From Candidatus Bathyarchaeia archaeon (GTDB taxonomy: Archaea > Thermoproteota > Bathyarchaeia > Bathyarchaeales > Bathycorpusculaceae): a stretch of 64,000 nt of DNA. Position 1 is the first letter of the stretch. Every line of letters begins with the position of its first letter. The DNA lies in NCBI GenBank assembly GCA_049515895.1, contig JBEKTQ010000021.1, positions 1 to 64,000 of the forward strand. The letters run 5' to 3'. The notes under the pieces were generated by a model. That model saw only the letters and a list, made by a program, of their open reading frames with translations, was not told the DNA's origin and did no database searches. Made by a program: the position numbers and the translations under genes. This document shows, in pieces, positions 1 through 19,021 of the stretch.

Positions 1-1781
1 ACAGTCGGCGAAGCAGCCACAGTAACAGAAGGCGTGTTAGACTGCACCATAAACGGAGTAGAAGCACTGTCAGTCACCCTACAATAAATAGTAGCTGAAC
101 CAGCAGAACTTGGCGTATAAACGTAAGTTGTACCCGTCTGACCAGAAACAGCAGAACCAGCCAAATACCACTGATAACTCAAAGTCCCTGAACCACCAGA
201 AGCAACACAACTAAACACCTGAGATTGACCAACATCCATAGTAACCGGAGTAGGAGTCACCGCAACAATCTGAGCAGCATTCACCGTAACCGATGGCGTG
301 TTAGACTGCACCATAAACGGAGTAGAAGCACTGTCAGTCACCCTACAATAAATAGAAGGAGAACCAGCAGAACCAACATAAACGTAAGTTGTACCCGTCT
401 GACCAGAAACAGCAGAACCAGCCAAATACCACTGATAATGCAAAGTACCCGAACCGCCAGAAGCAGCACAAGTAAACGTCTGACTCTGACCAACATCCAT
501 AGTAACCGAAGTAGGAGTCACAGAAACAGTCTGAGCAGCATTCACCGTAACAGAAGGCGCAGAAGATTGAGGTGAAGTCGTACTTGAACTATCAGTAACA
601 GTCACAGTAATCAAGGGAGAACCTGCGGAACTAGGAGAATAACTAAACGTCGACGCAGTCTGACCACTCTGAGCCACACCACCAACATACCACTGATACC
701 CCGTATAACTACCCGACCCACCAGCAGGAGTAGCAGTAAACGTCTCAGACTGACCAACATCCATAGTCCACGAAGAAGGAGACACACTAACAGAAAGGGG
801 AAGCGCTGGTTTAATCGCTTCAACTATCATCGCCCAATCGCTGGTTGAGACTGTCCCAAAGGCGACCGATTGGCTAGAAAGTGTTCCGGATACAATCCTG
901 TATTCGGCTGCTGTACCTGATGATCCAGCATGTTGAGCTTTGATCAATGTTCCAGTTGTGCCTGCTATGCTTCCGGCTGTAGCATCAACAGTTGATCTGT
1001 GGCCTTCAAGTCCGATTATCATATCAGCAGCAGTCGAAGTTGACACTCCGGTAACGGTAGGAGCACCACTACCGGCGGAGGCTGTTCTTGCAGATCCGTC
1101 GAACGGGCTGGCCGCGTTTGCTCCCGAGATACCGAACACAACCACATTTAGCCCACTACTGTCACTGCTGCCGAACGTTACCGTAACCGAAGTTAGTGCT
1201 GAGCTGGTAGGAACAGCATAGAATTCCCAGATACGATCATGACTACTCTGGTCAACGTTTGCACGAGCGGGGGTCCAAGTCAGGCTACCGCCAGACACAC
1301 TCGAAATAGTGTTGCTGCTGTATGAGGACGCGAGTACGATTACCACGTCATTCACTTTACAGTTGAGCGAACTCACAGTAACAGTCGCCGAACTCGTTGA
1401 AGAACTGCTTCCCGAATTATCTAATGCCAAAACTGAATCTGTGAATGTTGTTGTTGCTATATTCATTCCGTCAGTGGCCGTTACGTCAAAGAGGGGTGCA
1501 CCAAAATTATCTATTTGATAAGTAGCGGTAAAGTTTCCGTTTGAATCTGAGATTACGTTGAAGCTGCTAACGGATCCGTCAGCCTGCTTAGTAACGTTTA
1601 TGGCCACATCAGCATTGGACATGAAGCCTGTTCCGTATATGGTTACGACATCACCAGGGTGATAGTCGGGTTTGTCTGTCCAGATTGTGGCTATTTGGCC
1701 TTTAACTTGTATTGAAGATACTATCATACTGAATGATAACAAGATAAAAAACGCTAATACTATAACTTGAGTTTTTTTCAA
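1..1781 (-). CDS. Large secreted/surface protein with tandem Ig-like (PKD-like) repeats; runs off the window start
   Basis: Not in the ORF track; translated by hand from TTG at 1781 after a purine-rich RBS: MKKTQVIVLAFFILLSFSMIVSSIQVKG (signal peptide), WTDKPDYHPGDVVTIYGTGF, then ~88-aa repeats of the type TMDVGQSQTFTCAASGGSGTLHYQWYLAGSAVSGQTGTTY; no stop seen before position 1. Confidence 0.88.
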   Translation of the reverse strand, partial: MKKTQVIVLAFFILLSFSMIVSSIQVKGQIATIWTDKPDYHPGDVVTIYGTGFMSNADVAINVTKQADGSVSSFNVISDSNGNFTATYQIDNFGAPLFDVTATDGMNIATTTFTDSVLALDNSGSSSSTSSATVTVSSLNCKVNDVVIVLASSYSSNTISSVSGGSLTWTPARANVDQSSHDRIWEFYAVPTSSALTSVTVTFGSSDSSGLNVVVFGISGANAASPFDGSARTASAGSGAPTVTGVSTSTAADMIIGLEGHRSTVDATAGSIAGTTGTLIKAQHAGSSGTAAEYRIVSGTLSSQSVAFGTVSTSDWAMIVEAIKPALPLSVSVSPSSWTMDVGQSETFTATPAGGSGSYTGYQWYVGGVAQSGQTASTFSYSPSSAGSPLITVTVTDSSSTTSPQSSAPSVTVNAAQTVSVTPTSVTMDVGQSQTFTCAASGGSGTLHYQWYLAGSAVSGQTGTTYVYVGSAGSPSIYCRVTDSASTPFMVQSNTPSVTVNAAQIVAVTPTPVTMDVGQSQVFSCVASGGSGTLSYQWYLAGSAVSGQTGTTYVYTPSSAGSATIYCRVTDSASTPFMVQSNTPSVTVAASPT

Positions 1782-2702
1782 TTTTATCTTTCCCCTTTTT
1801 TCACGTAATCTCATGTTTTTTAGAGACCTGTTTGTGCGAAGGAAAAGCTGCAATTGGACATGCCAGTTGACTGCTTTCTAGCCTTCTCCCTGTCTCCTCT
1901 TTTTGTTTGTGAGGGACTGCATTTAAGGGAGATTTCTTGCAGGCGAATATGTCAGGTTTCGGAATAGTGCCTACGAACGTTTTAGGCAGTCTGAAAAGCA
2001 GCGTCAACGATTGGTCAAAGTAGGCTAACGCTACTACAAACGTATCCTTTTGCAGCTTCTCCTTCTCCCCCTAAACTAGGGTCTCTCTAAGCCACCTGCA
2101 TCGGATTTTGAATAAAAACACCTATGGAAAAGTAGATTAACCTTCTATGCTTGCATGGTCAACTTTGCGCTTTATTTTCGCCCTTGGACTGCAGGGAACC
2201 ACCAAGCTGAGTCGAGGTATCCCAGTGGGTATTGTTGTTCCAAGCGACCAGGCAAGGAAGACTAAACATCAATGTATGCGCGCTTCAGCGCTGAAAACCG
2301 GCCTGTAAGGGGAAAAATTCGCGTGTTGGGGTTTTTTAATCTAAAAGGGCTAGCTTTCTTACAGAAGAAACATCAACTCGTTTCACAACATGGCTCATTT
2401 ACATCATTTCCAAGCATTCAATGCAAACAATATCGTTAAATTGACATTTTTATGCTGCATTTCTCAAATAATCTGAATAATTTCACTCTGTTTTATAACA
2501 TTTTTCTAGAAAACCAATCGTTTCTTCTAGAAAAATTACGCAATTGTGAAACTGGAGCAAATACACCAAAACTTGCATTAGCAAAAGAGTTGAGATGCCA
2601 AAAGGCAAGGATTGCCCGCGCCAACCGAAAAGCCAAAAAAATCAAAAAACTAAAAAGCGCTAAAGACACAAAAAAATTTTTGGCTCGGCGCGAGAATGAA
2701 AA

Positions 2703-3038
2703 TTACGGCTGCCTGATTGGCTGTAGGAGTTTGGGTCCTTCACAGTATTGAGTTAGCCGCTCGCGTTCGCTGATCAGGGCGTCAAACAATTTTTCGGCCC
2801 TGAGGTAGCGTTCCTCGAAGTTTTTGTATTGCCGGAGGAATTCTCGTCCACGCTCAGTCAAGACGTATCTGGAGCCTTCAATGCGTACAAAGCCGGTGCA
2901 GGTAACGATGTCGAGGTATTTTTCCAGGAGGCTGAAGCTTAAGCCTGCCGAAAACATAATCTTGGTTTTGCTAGCTCCTAAACGGGCAGCTTCCAAAATG
3001 GCTGCGACGAGGCTGACGCGATCGCGGTTCTTACCCAA
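2703..3038 (-). CDS. Winged helix-turn-helix transcriptional regulator (HTH_45/ArnR1-like)
   Basis: KNRDRVSLVAAILEAA...SKTKIMFSAGLSFSLLEKYL...YVLTERGREFL is the typical pattern; start moved from 3095 to TTG 3038. Confidence 0.8.
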   Translation of the reverse strand: MGKNRDRVSLVAAILEAARLGASKTKIMFSAGLSFSLLEKYLDIVTCTGFVRIEGSRYVLTERGREFLRQYKNFEERYLRAEKLFDALISERERLTQYCEGPKLLQPIRQP

Positions 3039-3344
3039 CAAAACCACCCTTAAGTTGGAATTCGCGCAGAATATTTTCTCGGGAGCCAAAAGCAAAAATC
3101 AAAGAATCAAACGATTCAAAGTACTTATTTAGTCTTCTCTTGAAACGAGATATTGAAGCCATCCTTTCTCCCCGATCCTTCTCCTTACCAACGCAAAACT
3201 CAAAAAAACCTTATAAGGGATATTTCATTTGACGCAATATATCTAGAAAAATAACACAAGTCTTCCATAGCCAACTTAGCCTCAAAAATCACGGTTTACG
3301 GAATCTCCACTTCTTTTAAGTCCTTCTACGTGAGCCCTAAGAAC

Positions 3345-3453
3345 CAGCAAGGAGGAACGAAAAGCGCGTAGGCGAACGGAAAGGGACTGGAAGAAAGGCG
3401 GAAGAACGGGAATCCTCGCGGTGGAACGGGAGAAAACGCGAAAAAACGCAACC
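3345..3453 (+). repeat. 10-bp-period array (GAAAnAACGS type) ending in a truncated anchor AACGCAACC (copy A0)
   Basis: gaagaacggg aatcctcgcg gtggaacggg agaaaacgcg aaaaaacgcaacc; matches part of the 14731-14840 array unit by unit. Confidence 0.7.
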
Positions 3454-3544
3454 GAGGATCATAGATGGCTATGCATAACTCTCAACCGATTGGCTAGGTA
3501 TCATTTTTCCTTGACAATTTCACAATGGCTAAGACTAAACCTGC

Positions 3545-3659
3545 GATTTTGAGGAGATTTCGGGAGAAATTGAGAGATTTTGAGAGATTTCTAGACGCAA
3601 CCTGAAACCAATCCAAACCCCATTCCAAGAAACCAACCCATTTCACAAAGAACAAATTT
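3545..3659 (+). repeat. Anchor plus 10-bp array element (copy A, GAGAGATTTT-type array)
   Basis: gaggagattt cgggagaaat tgagagattt tgagagattt, then GACGCAACCTGAAACCAATCCAAACCCC...CAAATTT. Confidence 0.85.
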
Positions 3660-4159
3660 ACTGCCCCTCACAACAGGCCAAAAACAAACCCGGGCTCAGA
3701 CATATACAAATCTGAAATATTCCCAAACCCGAAACTTCACTTATATCGAAACATCGGCTTTATAGGTATTCAAAGGAGAGGAAGTCGGCAATATGAAACC
3801 GTTGGAAGTAAGCAATGGAAGTAATCGGAAAGTTGAAGATTTGTTGAAACAGTACATCATAGAAAGAGTGCGAATGCTCTGGTCGGTAAAACCGATTCAT
3901 TTCTGATAGATTAAGCTCTGCAAGCAATGAAGCATTAGTTAACTTCAAAGACTGATTATAGTAACGATAAAAAACAACAGCCTGTTCCCCGTGGCCTGGG
4001 CCATTATTTTGGTTGACTGCAAGGCGAATATCAGGCTTAATTTGGTTTCCCAGTTAGAATTTGGTTTAGACTCTGCATTTTATCATAAACGTGAATTCTG
4101 AATCTATACGCTGGCTTCTGACGTCTTATATTCGCGAATTTCTCACAGTAGAGAGCATC

Positions 4160-4978
4160 ATGCTAGAAATGGCGAGTATTAAGCAATCAGATAGTGAGAT
4201 CTACGTCATGAAGTGCCATACGTGTGACAGCGTTATTATTTACCCTGAAGGGTTGGAGGGCGAAAGGATCTGCAGCGGCTGCGGACTTGTTTTAGAGGAT
4301 ACGCCTTCGATTAGAAGTTATGCGCAATGGGCACCCGAGTGGCATTCGAACTGGAATGAAGAAGACTCAGAAACGCTCAAGGAATGGTTAACCGTACTAA
4401 GATCGGTTTCCTGCCAACTAAACATTCCAAACTACCCCTACAGAGAAGAAGCAGCACGCACAATAAGAAAACAAAGACACAACTTATTCAAGTCGCAGAA
4501 GCTCTCAAAAAACAAAAGAGCAACAGTAGCCGCCCTAATACATTTGACACTTAAAGAATACGACAAGCTGCGTCCATTAAAAGAAATAAGCAAAGAACTC
4601 AGCCTCGACCCAAGAGAAGTTATGAAGCAAAGCTGGCTACTAAACAAAACAATAAACACGGAAAAAGAAACTCTGAAAACTCAAAGAAGAACAGCAACAG
4701 ACTACCTGCATGAATACGCAGGAAAAATAACAGAAGACAAACAGCTAATCCTTAAAACCGACGAAACACTGAACAGAATAAGAAGATCAGGTGGAAACCC
4801 AATTGGCCTGGCAGCAGGCGCATTCTACAACACATGCAAAAACAACAAAGTTAAAATCTCGAAAGAGAAAATAGGCGAAATATTCCATATTTCAGCTAGA
4901 ACCGTCTACACGAATGAAGCAAGAATCAGAAAACTAAAAGGATCGTTTAAAGCTGCAGGACGAACGTTCTCGCCGTAA
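4160..4978 (+). CDS. Transcription factor B (TFIIB)-like paralog
   Basis: Zn ribbon CHTC...ERICSGCGLVLE, a PEW motif, and two cyclin-like repeats (ATVAALIHL; NPIGLAAGAFY...ISKEKIGEIFHISARTV); start uncertain. Confidence 0.8.
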   Translation: MLEMASIKQSDSEIYVMKCHTCDSVIIYPEGLEGERICSGCGLVLEDTPSIRSYAQWAPEWHSNWNEEDSETLKEWLTVLRSVSCQLNIPNYPYREEAARTIRKQRHNLFKSQKLSKNKRATVAALIHLTLKEYDKLRPLKEISKELSLDPREVMKQSWLLNKTINTEKETLKTQRRTATDYLHEYAGKITEDKQLILKTDETLNRIRRSGGNPIGLAAGAFYNTCKNNKVKISKEKIGEIFHISARTVYTNEARIRKLKGSFKAAGRTFSP

Positions 4979-12380: not shown

Positions 12381-13082
12381 ATGAAAATAGCGCATCACAG
12401 GCTACGACGTCTAACACTTCAGAGTAACGTTTTTAGCGATGCTTCAGAGATAAAACTTGTAGAAGGCGCTTTTGTGTCTGGAACTCCGCTGGAAATCACG
12501 TTTGATTTTGCCAAGGCTGTACTCGCGCTTTTTATTATTGTGGATCCATTTGGCGACATCCCCATATTCATAAGTTTAACGGAGAATATGTCTGACGGGG
12601 AAAAACGAAGAGTGTTTAACACGGCCACTATCGTTGGTTTGGCTCTTCTTCTTGTATTCTCGATTACCGGGCAAGAGATTTTTGCACTTTTCGGAATTTC
12701 CGTCTACGGTTTCGAGGTTGCTGGAGGCATTCTTCTGCTAATTATTGCGATTAGAATCCTGATTTCAGGCACGCATGAGGCGACGGAGTCCCCTGAAAGC
12801 CTGGGCGCTGTGCCAATAGCTATGCCTCTCCTCGTAGGTCCGGGAGCCATCACAACCACGATATTGAACTTGCAATTTTACGGGCTACTTACAGCTGTGG
12901 GAGCAGCCGTAGTCGTGGTGCTAATAACCTGGGTCATTTTAAGATTCGTGGGTTCGATTTACCGAGTCTTGGGCAAAACGGGTTCACTTGTCATCGCAAG
13001 AGTTGTAGCGTTGCTGATCGCTGCGATAGCCACTCAATACATCTTGATTGGGATAATGCACTACCTTGTTCTGTCTCATTAG
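12381..13082 (+). CDS. MarC family integral membrane protein
   Basis: LFIIVDPFG.IPIF, AGGILL and AVPIAMPLLVGPGAITT motifs; the true start is probably ~30 codons downstream. Confidence 0.92.
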   Translation: MKIAHHRLRRLTLQSNVFSDASEIKLVEGAFVSGTPLEITFDFAKAVLALFIIVDPFGDIPIFISLTENMSDGEKRRVFNTATIVGLALLLVFSITGQEIFALFGISVYGFEVAGGILLLIIAIRILISGTHEATESPESLGAVPIAMPLLVGPGAITTTILNLQFYGLLTAVGAAVVVVLITWVILRFVGSIYRVLGKTGSLVIARVVALLIAAIATQYILIGIMHYLVLSH

Positions 13083-13225: not shown

Positions 13226-13414
13226 TCATTCTGCACGTATGAGTAGAAGCGGTTTGGAAGCTTCTTTTTTCATTATTTTTCTTATTTCAACCTTATCGAG
13301 ATCTTCCGCAGTCTTCGTGGTCTCATCATGCGTATTATCTGGGAGAATGAGGTGAATCTCGCCATTTGGAGATTGTTCTCTAATTGTTCGCCAGTTTGGC
13401 AAACATATCACCAT
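13226..13414 (-). CDS. Small hypothetical protein
   Basis: 62-aa ORF with plausible composition, divergent from the candidate ncRNA. Confidence 0.4.
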   Translation of the reverse strand: MVICLPNWRTIREQSPNGEIHLILPDNTHDETTKTAEDLDKVEIRKIMKKEASKPLLLIRAE

Positions 13415-13660
13415 AGAATATACTCTCAGGCTCTTAACTTAATGTTTTTGGCGAAGTGTACTTTGCTTGTTTGCAAAGCAGGCATGCTTAGTTCTGTTTT
13501 CAGAAATAATTGCGTCATTCATGTCAAATTGACAAATTTATGTTAAAAGCTAATTTCACCACAAAAACCTCTTGGACTAAGTTAGCTGGGACAACCCCTG
13601 TTGGTGAGAAAGGAGTTCTTTACAAGACAAAAAACGCGTTCAATTGCCGATTTTTTGTAC

Positions 13661-13676
13661 AAAATTTGTTATATTT
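13661..13676 (+). promoter_or_regulatory. Putative BRE/TATA promoter of the structured ncRNA
   Basis: aaaatttg-TTATATTT ends 22 nt upstream of the first base of the closing stem (13698). Confidence 0.5.
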
Positions 13677-13697
13677 TACCAATACTATTAGAATGGC

Positions 13698-14013
13698 GTA
13701 GGTTGAGGAGCACGCTTTAAAGGCGATGTATCGAGACAAAGAGCGTACCAGTTAAAACAGCGGAAAACTGGTATGCGACTAAGACTCTGTTTCGATGGGC
13801 TGAACATTGGACGCAGTGCATTGAGGCAATGAGCGTGTCAGTCAAAACAGCGAAAGATTGATACGCGGCAAAGACAAGGCTTCGATGGGCTGAACATCAC
13901 TATATGTTGCAGTGAGGCAATGAGCGGTGCAGTCAAAACGGTGAAAGACTGCACAGCGACAAAGACATAGCCTCAATGGACCGCGAATATGTTAAGGCTT
14001 AGACTCAACCTAC
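13698..14013 (+). ncRNA. Unrecognised structured RNA: three tandem ~90-nt units inside a terminal stem with a bulge-helix-bulge motif
   Basis: Terminal inverted repeat GTAGGTTGAG/CTCAACCTAC; units at 13729-13803, 13819-13893 and 13910-13984 have conserved loops and compensatory stem changes; G-U pairs indicate the + strand; a pyrimidine tract follows at 14015. Confidence 0.8.
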
Positions 14014-14322
14014 ACTTCTCTTCAAAACAACTTAAACAACATCATTCTTGGTTCAGGAAAATCACGTTTCCTTCTTACGTTTAGACAATCAGCAATCTAA
14101 TTCTTAATTTACAAGCAGCCTTCAAAGAATTGTTAAAGAATTTGAAATCGAGTTGTATGGCGTAGCGCTGTTTAACGGCGCAAGGCTATTTTTTACTAGC
14201 TAAGAGTAGGTGGTTATGTGGTACGGATTTGGTTAAGATTTGAGTGCAAATCTGGAATATCGATTAATAATCTGTCGCTAAGAAGAAATTGAAAACTTCA
14301 ACACATAAGGGAGGCTCGAAGA

Positions 14323-14565
14323 ATGAAGCAAATACAGGTGTATGTATTGGATTTAAACAAAATAGATGGACGCGGAGATTTTTTATGTCCAAGATGTGGA
14401 AACGAAATTTCTCCTGACGACCCCACTGAAACGGCTTATTCCATTCTTGAAGCAATTGTCAGCAACCACGGTTTGGATGAAATAATAATTCGCTGCAACA
14501 AATGCGAAAGTGAACTCCATTTAACTGGTTTTTCTCTGCTGCAAAAACTGAGCGTACACTTTTGA
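14323..14565 (+). CDS. Small zinc-finger protein
   Basis: GGAGG RBS; DFLCPRCG.EISPDD...IRCNKC.SELHLTGF. Confidence 0.8.
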   Translation: MKQIQVYVLDLNKIDGRGDFLCPRCGNEISPDDPTETAYSILEAIVSNHGLDEIIIRCNKCESELHLTGFSLLQKLSVHF

Positions 14566-14730: not shown

Positions 14731-14902
14731 AAAAGAACGCAAGTAAACGCGAAAGAACTGGGAAGAACGGGAAACAACGCGAAAGCACGGGAATCAACGC
14801 GGTGGAACGGGAGGAAACGGGAAAAGACTGGAAAAAACGTGACCTGCAGAAGGTCCAAGCTCTGAACAAGAAAAGCAATCTGAAAAGAGCTTCGCAAGTT
14901 TT
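14731..14902 (+). repeat. Anchor plus 10-bp array element (copy D, GAAAnAACGS array)
   Basis: Eleven in-phase units, then ACGTGACCTGCAGAAGGTCCAAGC...AAAAGCAATC (diverged anchor). Confidence 0.82.
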
Positions 14903-15060: not shown

Positions 15061-15217
15061 GACTTTAGGAGACTTTACCAGACGATGGAGGACTTTGGGA
15101 GACTTTGGCAGACGATGGCGGACGATAGGAGACTTTAGGAGACGATAGGAGACGCAACCTGCAGCTGATCCAAGTTTCTCCACAAAAAAGCAACCCAAAA
15201 CACAAACAACAAAATTT
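15061..15217 (+). repeat. Anchor plus 10-bp array element (copy E, GACKWTRGGA array)
   Basis: Nine units all starting GAC, then GACGCAACCTGCAGCTGATCCAAG...AAAGCAACCCAAAACACAAACAACAAAATTT. Confidence 0.9.
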
Positions 15218-15341
15218 GGAGCGAAAGAATAAACTTGCAAACTTGGCGACTACCGTTTTCCTTCGCAACCTGCTTTTGGCGTCTTTTAAGAAGGAAAGAG
15301 AAATAAGCAGACGCGCCACCAATATTTTTTGTTTTACAAAG

Positions 15342-15902
15342 GTGATTTATGCGTCTTCGAAAACTCAAGTAAACATATCCTCAGCAACCCGGCTTCTTCA
15401 TCCGATGCACATAGTGTTGGTTTCATGTGTCGGGAAAGCGGGTAAACCCAATATAACAACGCTTGCATGGGCGATGCCGACCTCAATTAACCCGCCGCTT
15501 GTAGCCATCAGTCTGGCGCCAACACGGCATTCACACGCACTTATTGAGGAGTCGGGCGACTTCGTTGTGAATATTCCGACGTTGGAGATTCTTCAAGCCG
15601 TCTATGCCTGCGGTTCATTAACGGGAAGAAGCTTTGACAAATTCAAGAAAACAAACCTAACCCCGATTGCCGCTAAAAAAGTTAAAGCACCAGCGATACG
15701 CGAATGCGTAGCGCACCTTGAATGCACGGTAGAAGATAAATTCACCACGGGCGACCACACGGTTTTCGTCGGAAAAATAGTCGAAGCCTATGCTGACCTA
15801 GGCGTCTTCACCGAAACCTATGACTTGAAAAAGGCTCGCATGCTCTACCATCTGGGCGGCAACAACTTCGCAGTGCTTGATCCCAAAACCTACAAGCCCT
15901 AA
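15342..15902 (+). CDS. Flavin reductase-like FMN-binding protein
   Basis: KPNITTLAW.MP.SINPP, FVVNIP, ECVAHLEC and GDHTVFVG motifs; start uncertain. Confidence 0.9.
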   Translation: MIYASSKTQVNISSATRLLHPMHIVLVSCVGKAGKPNITTLAWAMPTSINPPLVAISLAPTRHSHALIEESGDFVVNIPTLEILQAVYACGSLTGRSFDKFKKTNLTPIAAKKVKAPAIRECVAHLECTVEDKFTTGDHTVFVGKIVEAYADLGVFTETYDLKKARMLYHLGGNNFAVLDPKTYKP

Positions 15903-18896: not shown

Positions 18897-19021
18897 GTGG
18901 CTGCCAGCTTTCCCAGGTTCACGTGGCCTAAGACCACACTACAGCTGGAAACGGAGCACGGTTTAACTTCTGAGTTCGGAATGGGATCAGGTGGAACCCG
19001 TGCCCTTTGACCGGGAAACAC
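18897..19021 (-). rRNA. rrf: 5S ribosomal RNA, unlinked from 16S/23S
   Basis: Minus strand contains CACCTGATCCCATTCCGAACTCAGAAGTTAAACCGTGCTCCG and ends GGGAAAGCTGGCAGCCAC; length ~120 nt. Confidence 0.93.

What the first reader, a model, noticed from the sequence alone, without database searches (positions are those of the whole stretch)
13698..14013. Predicted circular RNA with threefold pseudo-symmetry, released by a bulge-helix-bulge motif
Seen: the two ends pair as a 10-bp outer stem (13698-13707/14004-14013), a 3-nt bulge AGA (14001-14003), a 4-bp helix GAGC/GCUU (13708-13711/13997-14000), a 3-nt bulge ACG (13712-13714) and an inner CUU/AAG stem. Each bulge lies 3' of the central helix, which is canonical BHB geometry, although the inner stem is short. 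Established: the archaeal splicing endonuclease EndA cuts after the second bulge nucleotide and RtcB can circularise the excised piece. Inference: a 289-nt circle (13714-14002) forms. Its junction reads UUAAGGC-UUAG-GCUUUAA, a 7-bp tetraloop hairpin sitting where small linker hairpins lie between units 1/2 (CAUUG-GACG-CAGUG) and 2/3 (AACAU-CACUAU-AUGUU), which completes a three-unit ring. A TATA-like box upstream and a pyrimidine tract downstream suggest a stand-alone gene.
Basis: partly seen in the sequence, partly recalled or inferred. Interest (0 to 1): 0.92.

Follow-up and report, generated by a model that had tools for sequence, protein, structure and literature searches.

The report
Gene-encoded modular circular RNA, Bathyarchaeia
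A small archaeal gene encodes a tightly folded RNA of three repeated modules whose ends are shaped for the tRNA-splicing enzymes, and RNA-derived sequences from close relatives show the same RNA joined into a ring, which points to an undescribed family of dedicated circular RNAs.

Summary
Window 13698-14013 holds three tandem ~90-nt modules, each with two helices and a covarying loop-to-tail pseudoknot. They are enclosed by a 10-bp stem and a bulge-helix-bulge (BHB).

This is one member of a family absent from Rfam. I found it in 74 of 151 genomes of the window's order and in further orders of the class, but in 0 of 131 genomes of other classes of the phylum. The three titled genome records that carry it are all Bathyarchaeia. 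Members have one, two or three modules, always inside the same BHB, with a TATA-like box about 30 nt upstream.

The genome encodes two EndA paralogues and RtcB.

The decisive evidence concerns the predicted ligation junction. It is not DNA-encoded beside the RNA in 401 genomes. It does occur in one contig that otherwise carries an RNA-virus genome (RdRP), as 1.66 head-to-tail turns of a two-module relative with a 195-nt period, bounded exactly at the predicted cut sites. It also occurs in three short chimeric metagenome contigs.

Circularisation of this window's own locus is inferred by homology, and the function is unknown. The BHB is not the predicted minimum-energy fold.

The parts
13659..13678 (+). 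Promoter: BRE-like A-rich stretch and TATA-like box TTATATTTTA (13669-13678). This places the transcription start at about the first base of the outer stem.
   Evidence: Sequence. In 45 of 68 family members a TATA-like hexamer starts 28-32 nt upstream of the 10-bp stem; 54 of 68 have one at -50..-20, against 10% of random positions.
13698..13707 (+). 5' strand of the outer processing stem (pairs with 14004-14013).
   Evidence: Each of the 10 pairs is kept in 63-69 of 69 members, with several pair types per position. In the second genomic copy two pairs change compensatorily.
13708..13711 (+). 5' strand (GAGC) of the 4-bp central BHB helix (pairs with GCUU 13997-14000).
   Evidence: Family variation is R-R-G-Y against G-C-U-Y. 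The first pair is G-U in 36, A-U in 17, G-C in 16 and A-C in 0 members.
13712..13714 (+). 5' bulge ACG. The predicted cut lies between 13713 and 13714, so G13714 becomes the first base of the circle.
   Evidence: Family bulge is A-N-G: ACG 34, AAG 16, AGG 14, AUG 5. Junction-bearing contigs map to exactly this base in relatives.
13714..14002 (+). Predicted 289-nt circular RNA.
   Evidence: Inferred by homology to a two-module relative that appears as a 195-nt-period head-to-tail concatemer in RNA-derived contig L258.
13728..13809 (+). Module 1 (type A): P1 13729-13737/13789-13797; P2 13743-13753/13766-13776; pseudoknot loop 13758-13761 with tail 13799-13802.
   Evidence: Covariance-model hit at 90.3 bits; helix coordinates; covariation.
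13805..13818 (+). Linker hairpin 1/2 (CAUUG-GACG-CAGUG).
   Evidence: Sequence. Only three near-identical three-module sequences exist, so there is no covariation test.
13818..13899 (+). Module 2 (type A, a duplicate of module 1): P1 13819-13827/13879-13887; P2 13833-13843/13856-13866; pseudoknot 13848-13851 with 13889-13892.
   Evidence: Covariance-model hit at 91.2 bits.
13893..13908 (+). Linker hairpin 2/3 (AACAU-CACUAU-AUGUU).
   Evidence: Sequence.
13909..13990 (+). Module 3 (type B): P1 13910-13918/13970-13978; P2 13924-13934/13947-13957; pseudoknot 13939-13942 (CGGU) with 13980-13983 (ACCG).
   Evidence: Covariance-model hit at 89.8 bits. The pseudoknot letters differ from modules 1 and 2 by two compensatory changes.
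13994..14000 (+). 3' strand of the inner stem (AAG) and of the central BHB helix (GCUU). After ligation, GGC-UUAG-GCC/U becomes the tip of a new hairpin.
   Evidence: The circle's minimum-energy fold contains this hairpin in 33 of 34 one-module, 19 of 31 two-module and 1 of 3 three-module members.
14001..14003 (+). 3' bulge AGA. The predicted cut lies between 14002 and 14003.
   Evidence: AGA in 65 of 69 members. The circle end maps here in relatives.
14004..14013 (+). 3' strand of the outer processing stem.
   Evidence: As for 13698-13707.
14015..14023 (+). Pyrimidine tract CUUCUCUUC, a possible termination region.
   Evidence: Sequence only. There is no T4 run here, whereas 48 of 68 relatives have one within 40 nt.

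Best explanation
Window 13698-14013 is a stand-alone gene for a member of an undescribed ncRNA family of the archaeal class Bathyarchaeia.

Shown:
- It has its own TATA-type promoter.
- The body consists of tandem ~82-90-nt modules. This genome and one relative have three, most of the genus has two, and several other families have one.
- Each module has a 9-bp lower helix, a conserved asymmetric internal loop with GA on both strands, an 11-bp upper helix, and a 12-nt loop of which 4 nt pair with the tail just 3' of the lower helix.
- The two ends always form a 10-12-bp stem followed by two 3-nt bulges separated by 4 bp.

Inferred for this locus, observed in relatives: the splicing endonuclease (two EndA paralogues are encoded) cuts after the second base of each bulge, and RtcB (encoded) joins the ends of the excised piece into a 289-nt ring. 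Ligation converts the half-helices at the ends into one more linker hairpin with a UUAG loop. The ring is then N modules alternating with N hairpins.

Inference only, at low confidence (about 0.3): the ring is an abundant, exonuclease-resistant scaffold. Each module would offer one binding site for a protein, a kink-turn binder such as L7Ae being one candidate, or for a small ligand. Module number would then set the valency.

The confidence given (0.8) is for the gene, the family and the ring, not for the function.
For: Structure:
- The fold has z = -7.65.
- Module alignment of 44 units: 93.8% of cells paired, 20 of 24 pairs change on both sides, 0 of 500 shuffles reach this, slid controls 32-42% paired. 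The pseudoknot is 99.4% paired, with 3 of 4 pairs compensatory.
- Alignment of 34 one-module RNAs: 94.3% paired, 40 of 51 pairs change on both sides, and 11 of 12 outer-stem pairs are compensatory.

Gene status:
- A second copy in the same genome is 94% identical only between the two stem ends, with compensatory stem changes.
- The TATA-like hexamer peaks at -32..-28 in 45 of 68 members.
- There is no Rfam match.

Distribution:
- 74 of 151 genomes of the order.
- 25 of 151 across the class, including six further families.
- 0 of 131 genomes of other classes.
- The only titled records that hold it are Bathyarchaeia.

BHB:
- The motif is at the same place in all 69 distinct members.
- The central-helix changes are all pairing-preserving transitions, with A-C never seen.
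- The same motif occurs in other orders.

Enzymes: two EndA genes, RtcB, and 11 of 46 tRNAs predicted with introns.

Ring:
- A junction pattern found L258, a 4273-nt contig encoding RdRP_3 (E = 1.4e-167) and a viral coat protein.
- One end of L258 carries 1.66 head-to-tail turns of a two-module member, with a 195-nt period.
- The monomer equals genomic member L010 from 5'-bulge base 3 to 3'-bulge base 2, at 89.9% identity.
- Three short metagenome contigs (L213, L214, L217) carry the junction with both flanks mapping to circle end and circle start. Two are fused to bacterial-type genes, and L217 has a type IX secretion tail.
- The junction word lies beside a family module in 0 of 40 genomic matches in 401 class genomes. 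The junction is therefore made at the RNA level.
Against:
- My scans required the exact predicted junction, so other junction offsets were not sampled. The mapping does agree with the predicted sites.
- The BHB is not the predicted stable conformer. The central helix is in the free minimum-energy fold in only 7 of 68 members. Enforcing it costs a median of 8.2 (one-module), 4.4 (two-module) and 8.7 (three-module) kcal/mol.
- A register with a continuous inner helix and a 6x5 internal loop fits the comparative data equally well (93.7% paired).
- In one family (L184-L187) the BHB-register inner helix is a single pair.
- In this window's circle the 7-bp junction hairpin is not in the minimum-energy fold.
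- That the contigs are RNA-derived is an inference, from the RNA-virus genes for L258 and from the chimeric single-gene layout for L213 and L217.
- The circle could be an intermediate rather than the mature form.
- Nothing tested here bears on function. The GA/GA loop has a 6-nt rather than 3-nt bulge, and its G is A in about 7 of 44 modules.
Confidence: 0.8

Rival explanations
1. The ring is only a processing intermediate. As for archaeal 16S rRNA, the excised circle is reopened elsewhere, and the mature functional RNA is a linear, circularly permuted molecule.
For: Archaeal pre-rRNA circles are classically viewed as intermediates (passages of PMC12918454). L216 shows a DNA-encoded permuted partial copy with the junction hairpin intact and a new terminal stem, which is a linear arrangement that may work.
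Against: No conserved second processing site was seen. The concatemer in L258 and the junctions in three other contigs show that joined molecules are abundant enough to be assembled. The junction hairpin letters are among the most conserved of the RNA.
Confidence: 0.12
2. The RNA is a linear structured ncRNA. The conserved GRGYAN / UYAGA letters at the base form an internal loop that binds a protein and is not cut, and the junction-bearing contigs are assembly artefacts.
For: The internal-loop register is the predicted minimum-energy fold in most members and is as well supported by pair counts as the BHB register.
Against: Four independent contigs with four different sequences join exactly 3'-bulge base 2 to 5'-bulge base 3. 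One is a 195-nt-period concatemer that lacks leader, trailer and outer stem. The junction is never beside the RNA in 401 genomes. An assembler cannot invent the same precise deletion four times.
Confidence: 0.05
3. It is a selfish or mobile circular RNA, viroid-like or retrozyme-like, that spreads through DNA copies rather than a cellular functional RNA.
For: There are two copies with unrelated flanks in this genome. Some genomes give up to 6 module hits. L216 looks like a permuted, possibly reverse-copied fragment. L258 was filed among viral contigs.
Against: The distribution is class-wide and largely single-copy, for example one module in 20 of 20 genomes of one genus. Several families share synteny with the DNA ligase gene. 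All helices covary strongly. No self-cleaving ribozyme match was found. The viral label of L258 is explained by the tombus-like virus it is fused to.
Confidence: 0.05
4. It is a tandem riboswitch or cis-regulatory leader of a neighbouring gene.
For: Each module looks like a compact pseudoknotted aptamer with conserved unpaired bases. It lies in a 2.1-kb ORF-poor gap.
Against: The RNA has its own promoter directly at the stem. Neighbours differ between the two copies and between families, and the nearest conserved neighbour, DNA ligase, is convergent. The RNA is excised from its flanks.
Confidence: 0.02

Closest known systems
Circularised, permuted SRP RNA of Thermoproteus (PMC4731332; I saw only the search listing and the start of the abstract)
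   Same: It is a stand-alone ncRNA gene. A BHB at the ends is processed by the tRNA-splicing machinery, and ligation creates a helix that the functional RNA needs.
   Different: That RNA belongs to a universal family (SRP RNA) whose gene became permuted. The RNA here belongs to no known family, is modular (1-3 repeats), and every member seen uses the BHB route.
Circular pre-16S/23S rRNA and circular 23S rRNA of archaea (PMC12918454, passages read; PMC7714728, listing only)
   Same: A long processing stem is followed by a BHB, then EndA cleavage and ligation of the excised RNA into a circle. This is reported for Bathyarchaeia too.
   Different: Those are kilobase rRNAs inside operons. This is a 108-289-nt RNA with its own promoter and no rRNA similarity.
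Circular tRNA introns, including the tRNA-Trp intron that is a C/D box sRNA (PMC12558985, passages read), and metazoan tricRNAs (PMC4536317, listing only)
   Same: A BHB-excised piece is the stable and sometimes functional product.
   Different: Those are hosted in a tRNA whose exons are the main product. Here the 'exons' are a ~16-nt leader and a short trailer with no conserved content beyond the stem.
Circular C/D box sRNAs made by the Rnl3-type RNA ligase (PMC9014305, listing only) and circular omega-RNAs (PMC12558985)
   Same: They are small archaeal ncRNAs present as circles.
   Different: Those form without a BHB, and circular and linear isoforms coexist. No C or D boxes occur here.
Modular multi-repeat ncRNAs such as CsrB/RsmZ-type protein sponges or multi-hairpin archaeal H/ACA sRNAs (recalled, not from any call)
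   Same: A variable number of similar structured modules sits in one RNA, which suggests multivalent binding.
   Different: There is no sequence or structural similarity. The modules here are pseudoknotted and joined in a ring.

Membership tests
Archaeal BHB (helix-bulge-helix-bulge-helix) substrate of the splicing endonuclease | Two 3-nt bulges on opposite strands separated by a 4-bp helix | tested here: met
   In the window the bulges are 13712-13714 and 14001-14003, around the helix 13708-11/13997-14000. The geometry is the same in all 69 distinct members, although the collecting regex required the RRGY/GCUY letters. It is also found by an unbiased geometric scan in other orders.
Archaeal BHB (helix-bulge-helix-bulge-helix) substrate of the splicing endonuclease | Flanking helices on both sides | tested here: met
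   The outer helix is 10-12 bp and covaries. The inner helix is 3 bp, then a U bulge, then 8 bp in one-module forms. It is 3 bp in the window and only 1 bp in the family of L184-L187, which would make that a relaxed BHB.
Archaeal BHB (helix-bulge-helix-bulge-helix) substrate of the splicing endonuclease | Cut after the second bulge base on each strand, with the excised piece ligated (the cut position is recalled knowledge) | tested here: met
   This is met for relatives. The junctions in L258, L213, L214 and L217 map to member position 19 (5'-bulge base 3) and to 3'-bulge base 2. It is not testable for the window's own locus.
Archaeal BHB (helix-bulge-helix-bulge-helix) substrate of the splicing endonuclease | The enzymes are present in the genome | tested here: met
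   Two PF01974 genes at 99.3 and 80.7 bits and one PF01139 RtcB at 586.8 bits.
Archaeal BHB (helix-bulge-helix-bulge-helix) substrate of the splicing endonuclease | The BHB is the thermodynamically favoured fold of the precursor | tested here: not met
   The central helix is in the free minimum-energy fold in 7 of 68 members. Enforcing it costs 8.7 kcal/mol in the window. The energy model ignores pseudoknots and proteins.
Any Rfam 15 family | Covariance-model score at or above the gathering threshold | tested here: not met
   The only window hit is 5S rRNA, elsewhere in the window. At E <= 10 on 13300-14400 the best hit is 16.9 bits against a threshold of 40.
Kink-turn (L7Ae-binding) motif | Tandem sheared G-A pairs next to a canonical helix, preceded by a 3-nt bulge (the consensus is recalled) | tested here: not met
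   GA directly 5' of P2 is >=90% conserved, and GA in the 3' strand (AAGAC) is conserved. However, 6 nt rather than 3 separate P2 from that GA, and its G is A in about 7 of 44 modules. This is a resemblance only.
Archaeal H/ACA guide sRNA (1-3 hairpins) | ACA box directly 3' of the lower stem, and a guide pocket that differs between hairpins | tested here: not met
   The lower stem is followed by UGGGCUGA / UGGACCGC, which pairs with the apical loop. The internal-loop letters are the same in all modules.
C/D box sRNA | C box RUGAUGA and D box CUGA forming a kink-turn | tested here: not met
   There is no RUGAUGA. The CUGA of modules 1-2 is part of the covarying pseudoknot and is absent in module 3.
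Viroid-like / retrozyme circular RNA | Self-cleaving ribozyme and replication or mobility independent of a host promoter | tested here: not met
   There is no ribozyme family match. The gene is chromosomal with a TATA promoter and conserved synteny.

The most novel reading that the evidence does not exclude
The ring is the mature, functional form of a new class of archaeal ribonucleoprotein RNA. It would be a covalently closed necklace of one to three pseudoknotted, kink-turn-like modules, closed by the tRNA-splicing enzymes. Module number would set the valency for a dedicated protein or ligand partner in Bathyarchaeia. L216 would then be a DNA copy made from the circle, which would imply reverse copying of a circular RNA in an archaeon.
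Probability: 0.3. Interest if true: 0.92.

Novelty: new variant of a known kind. Interest (0 to 1): 0.85.

Why it matters
Known BHB-made circles in archaea are by-products or intermediates of tRNA and rRNA maturation, or a single repaired housekeeping RNA. This locus represents a whole gene family whose only evident product is a small structured ring. It is conserved across a globally abundant, largely uncultured archaeal class, and the number of modules in the ring varies.

It gives RNA biologists three things:
- a natural, compact, covariation-supported circular RNA with a defined biogenesis signal;
- a new substrate class for EndA and RtcB;
- a directly testable question, namely what binds the modules.

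The conserved 5' and 3' half-motifs are also a ready-made natural cassette for making circles.

I found no description of this family in four literature searches. Supplementary tables of the circular-RNA surveys (PMC12918454, PMC12558985) were not available to me and could list it.

Tried and rejected
Known RNA families. Rfam gave nothing at gathering thresholds or at E <= 10, and ARAGORN found no tRNA or tmRNA in the window. I rejected the H/ACA, C/D box and classical kink-turn readings on the sequence.

Organism. A thaumarchaeal origin was considered first. No AmoA match was found, but the control was silent, so this is uninformative. The titled records that hold the RNA are Bathyarchaeia.

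Genome-contig scan. The scan with the two end motifs and a 172-200-nt gap was too loose. I scored the 80 that were listed, and only 3 were real.

Pseudo-ORF search. I searched for protein-database entries called on the antisense open frame of L003 (107 aa), hoping to reach transcript assemblies. It found nothing, and I did not repeat it with other lengths.

DNA-encoded junctions. The junction 14-mer is enriched in class genomes, with 40 matches against 10 for the reversed control. That briefly suggested DNA-encoded junctions. All 40 lack a family module nearby, and many encode an HtrA-like QGLGFA motif, so I rejected this.

Other junction scans. Two of six metagenome hits (L212, L215) are chance matches in an ispF-like gene; that name is my own reading of the translation, not a tool result. 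Viral-contig scans for one-module junctions found nothing real. Five of the six loci from the 18-mer scan were chance.

Other negatives. Thermodynamic folding does not favour the BHB.
Full report
WHAT IS IN THE WINDOW

The stretch 13698-14013 lies in a 2.1-kb ORF-poor gap between a MarC-family gene (12381-13082 +) and a flavin-reductase gene (15216-15902 +).

Tandem Repeats Finder reports a 90-nt period with 2.6 copies and 76% matches. The + strand folds far better than shuffles, at -120.8 against -80.7 +/- 5.2 kcal/mol (z = -7.65), and better than the - strand (z = -5.83). Rfam 15 has no family for it, and no tRNA lies in the window.

A FAMILY, NOT A SINGLETON

The genome (3.18 Mb, 53 contigs) has a second copy on contig C1 at 94% identity. 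The identity starts and stops at the outer stem, and the flanks are unrelated. Two outer-stem pairs and several pairs of the third module's upper helix differ by compensatory changes.

BLAST and a profile of the repeat found relatives in 22 of 41 related genomes. Most have two modules, a few have one, and only this genome (twice) and one relative have three.

Each module has the following anatomy:
- a 9-bp lower helix P1;
- a 5-nt 5' joining strand ending in GA;
- an 11-bp upper helix P2;
- a 12-nt apical loop;
- an 11-12-nt A-rich 3' joining strand (GNYAAAGAC..);
- a tail after P1 whose four bases pair with four loop bases.

On 44 modules the three helices are 93.8% paired, and 20 of 24 pairs change on both sides. 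No shuffle out of 500 reaches this, and slid controls give 32-42% paired. The pseudoknot is 99.4% paired, with 3 of 4 pairs compensatory (CAGC/GCUG, CGGU/ACCG, CGGC/GCCG).

The three-module form is A-A-B. The first module type, with its own pseudoknot letters, has been duplicated.

DISTRIBUTION AND HOST

A covariance model of the module (R1) gave these results:
- 74 of 151 genomes of the order. One family had 33 of 34, and one genus had 20 of 20 with a single module.
- 25 of 151 across the class, including six families of other orders.
- 7 of 151 in the phylum sample, all 7 in the window's own order and 0 of 131 in other classes.

These are samples, and the stricter filters lose weak hits, so 'not found' is not 'absent'. 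The only titled public records confirmed by the model (3 of the 80 listed loci scored, out of 120 stretches) are named Candidatus Bathyarchaeia or Bathyarchaeota.

THE ENDS

In 28 of 29 loci of the first set, both end motifs were found. The outer stem had at least 9 of 10 pairs in 26 of them. Over all 69 distinct full-length members (34 one-module, 32 two-module, 3 three-module):
- Each of the ten outer-stem positions is paired in 63-69 of 69, with several pair types.
- The central helix is R-R-G-Y against G-C-U-Y. Its first pair is G-U in 36, A-U in 17, G-C in 16 and A-C in 0.
- The 5' bulge is A-N-G.
- The 3' bulge is AGA in 65 of 69.

My collecting regex demanded these letter classes, so the pairing of three of the four central pairs is partly circular. 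An unbiased geometric scan nevertheless recovers the same motif in members from other orders, against a background of unrelated chance BHBs.

The 34 one-module RNAs give 94.3% paired cells for the full BHB-register structure, with 40 of 51 pairs changing on both sides and 0 of 500 shuffles reaching this. A second register is equally supported at 93.7%. In it, the third 5'-bulge base and the following bases pair with AAGGC, giving a continuous helix and a 6x5 internal loop. The cut-and-join model expects exactly this, because that register is the hairpin left after ligation. But comparative data alone cannot prove the BHB conformer.

PROMOTER AND ENZYMES

A TATA-like hexamer starts 28-32 nt upstream of the stem in 45 of 68 members, and 54 of 68 have one at -50..-20 against 10% of random positions. 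Transcription would therefore start at the stem. 48 of 68 members have a T4 run within 40 nt downstream, whereas the window has only a pyrimidine tract.

The genome encodes two splicing-endonuclease paralogues and RtcB. ARAGORN predicts introns in 11 of 46 tRNAs, some of them doubtful.

IS THE RING MADE?

I therefore scanned contig collections for the predicted junction, with a family-specific tail motif attached.

Metagenome contigs. Six loci matched. Two are chance hits in a bacterial gene. Three are short contigs (1.3-1.7 kb: L213, L214, L217) in which a family fragment sits at a contig end and is fused to unrelated sequence. In L217 that sequence is a complete gene with a type IX secretion tail above Pfam's cut-off. 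In L213 it is a complete secreted-protein gene. In all three, the sequence before the junction maps to the circle end of genomic members, and the sequence after it maps to member position 19, the third bulge base. L213 is too short for the covariance model (no hit) and was recognised by BLAST and by eye.

Viral contigs. The same pattern found L258, 4273 nt. It encodes an RdRP_3 polymerase (E = 1.4e-167) and a viral coat protein, which marks a plus-strand RNA virus, so the contig comes from RNA. Its last 324 nt are 1.66 head-to-tail turns of a two-module family RNA. The evidence is three model hits, a 129-nt direct repeat at spacing 195 with 99% identity, and the sequence itself. The monomer equals genomic member L010, from the window's genus-level group, from the third 5'-bulge base to the second 3'-bulge base at 89.9% identity. 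Leader, trailer and outer stem are absent.

Control. The junction 14-mer occurs 40 times in 401 class genomes, but never next to a module. Many of these matches are QGLGFA codons. The junction therefore arises at the RNA level. A concatemer with the period of the predicted circle is what an assembler produces from a ring.

CAVEATS

- The patterns forced the exact junction, so offsets were not sampled.
- The RNA origin of L213, L214 and L217 is inferred from their layout.
- None of this is from the window's own species.
- Nearest-neighbour folding does not favour the BHB. It is in the free minimum-energy fold in 7 of 68 members, and enforcing it costs 8.7 kcal/mol here. The model ignores the pseudoknots and the enzyme.
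- The post-ligation hairpin is in the circular minimum-energy fold in 33 of 34 one-module, 19 of 31 two-module and 1 of 3 three-module rings, and not in the window's own ring.

One 10.8-kb archaeal-looking contig (L216) encodes a permuted partial copy with the junction hairpin contiguous in DNA and no BHB. It may be a copy made from the ring or a linear derivative.

FUNCTION

Nothing tested here reveals the function. Neighbours are not conserved in the window's family. In two other families the gene converges on the DNA ligase gene, which I read as plain synteny.

The conserved GA/GA internal loop resembles a kink-turn that would bend P2 back so that its loop reaches the tail, but it fails the 3-nt-bulge criterion. 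That fragments of the RNA turn up fused to abundant transcripts in four assemblies suggests high cellular abundance; this is inference.

My best guess, at about 0.3, is a stable multivalent scaffold for a protein or ligand.

NOVELTY

The biogenesis route is known, from rRNA, tRNA introns and the Thermoproteus SRP RNA. A class-wide, promoter-driven gene family whose product is a modular small ring is not described in Rfam. Nor does it appear in the four literature searches I ran or the passages I read.

Noticed in passing
L216:2326-2450 (metagenome contig Ga0326727_10026368): This is a DNA-encoded, circularly permuted partial copy of a two-module family RNA. It comprises the tail of module 1, the linker, module 2, the exact ligation junction and about 12 nt of the circle start. 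A GC-rich stem closes it and there is no BHB. The 10.8-kb contig also holds a tRNA and a DUF996 gene. It could be a reverse copy of the ring or a linear derivative.
   Followed up: partly
window 13504-13552: The two copies of the RNA gene in this genome also share a ~50-nt conserved block 150-200 nt upstream, which contains the palindrome TGTCAAATTGACA. The DNA between this block and the RNA has diverged. It may be a regulatory site.
   Followed up: no
L014, L017, L023, L026-L028, L042, L045: 20-60 nt downstream of the RNA: A conserved nested hairpin (..AGTGGAA..ACGG-AAAA-CCGT..TCCACTT) follows the RNA gene in one subgroup of the window's family. It could be a terminator or a second small RNA.
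   Followed up: no
L035, L041, L018, L020: In two other families the RNA gene converges on the ATP-dependent DNA ligase gene (Pfam E about 1e-63). In L035 and L018 it is preceded, divergently, by a ~220-aa protein with no Pfam match.
   Followed up: partly
L258 (IMGVR_UViG_3300037652_000012) 790-4244: This is a tombus-like RNA virus genome (RdRP_3 and an S-domain coat protein) assembled as a chimera with the archaeal circular-RNA concatemer.
   Followed up: partly
401 genomes of the class: The 14-nt junction word is four times commoner than its reversed control. The reason is that it spells the QGLGFA motif of HtrA-like proteases. This is a trap for junction searches.
   Followed up: yes
window 18899-19018 (-): A lone 5S rRNA gene (65.4 bits) with no other rRNA in the window.
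   Followed up: no
window 14323-14565 (+) and 14753-14800: An 80-aa ORF with weak zinc-ribbon matches below the cut-offs, and a short tandem repeat, AAGAACGGGAAACAACGCGA x 1.9. Both lie in the same ORF-poor gap.
   Followed up: no
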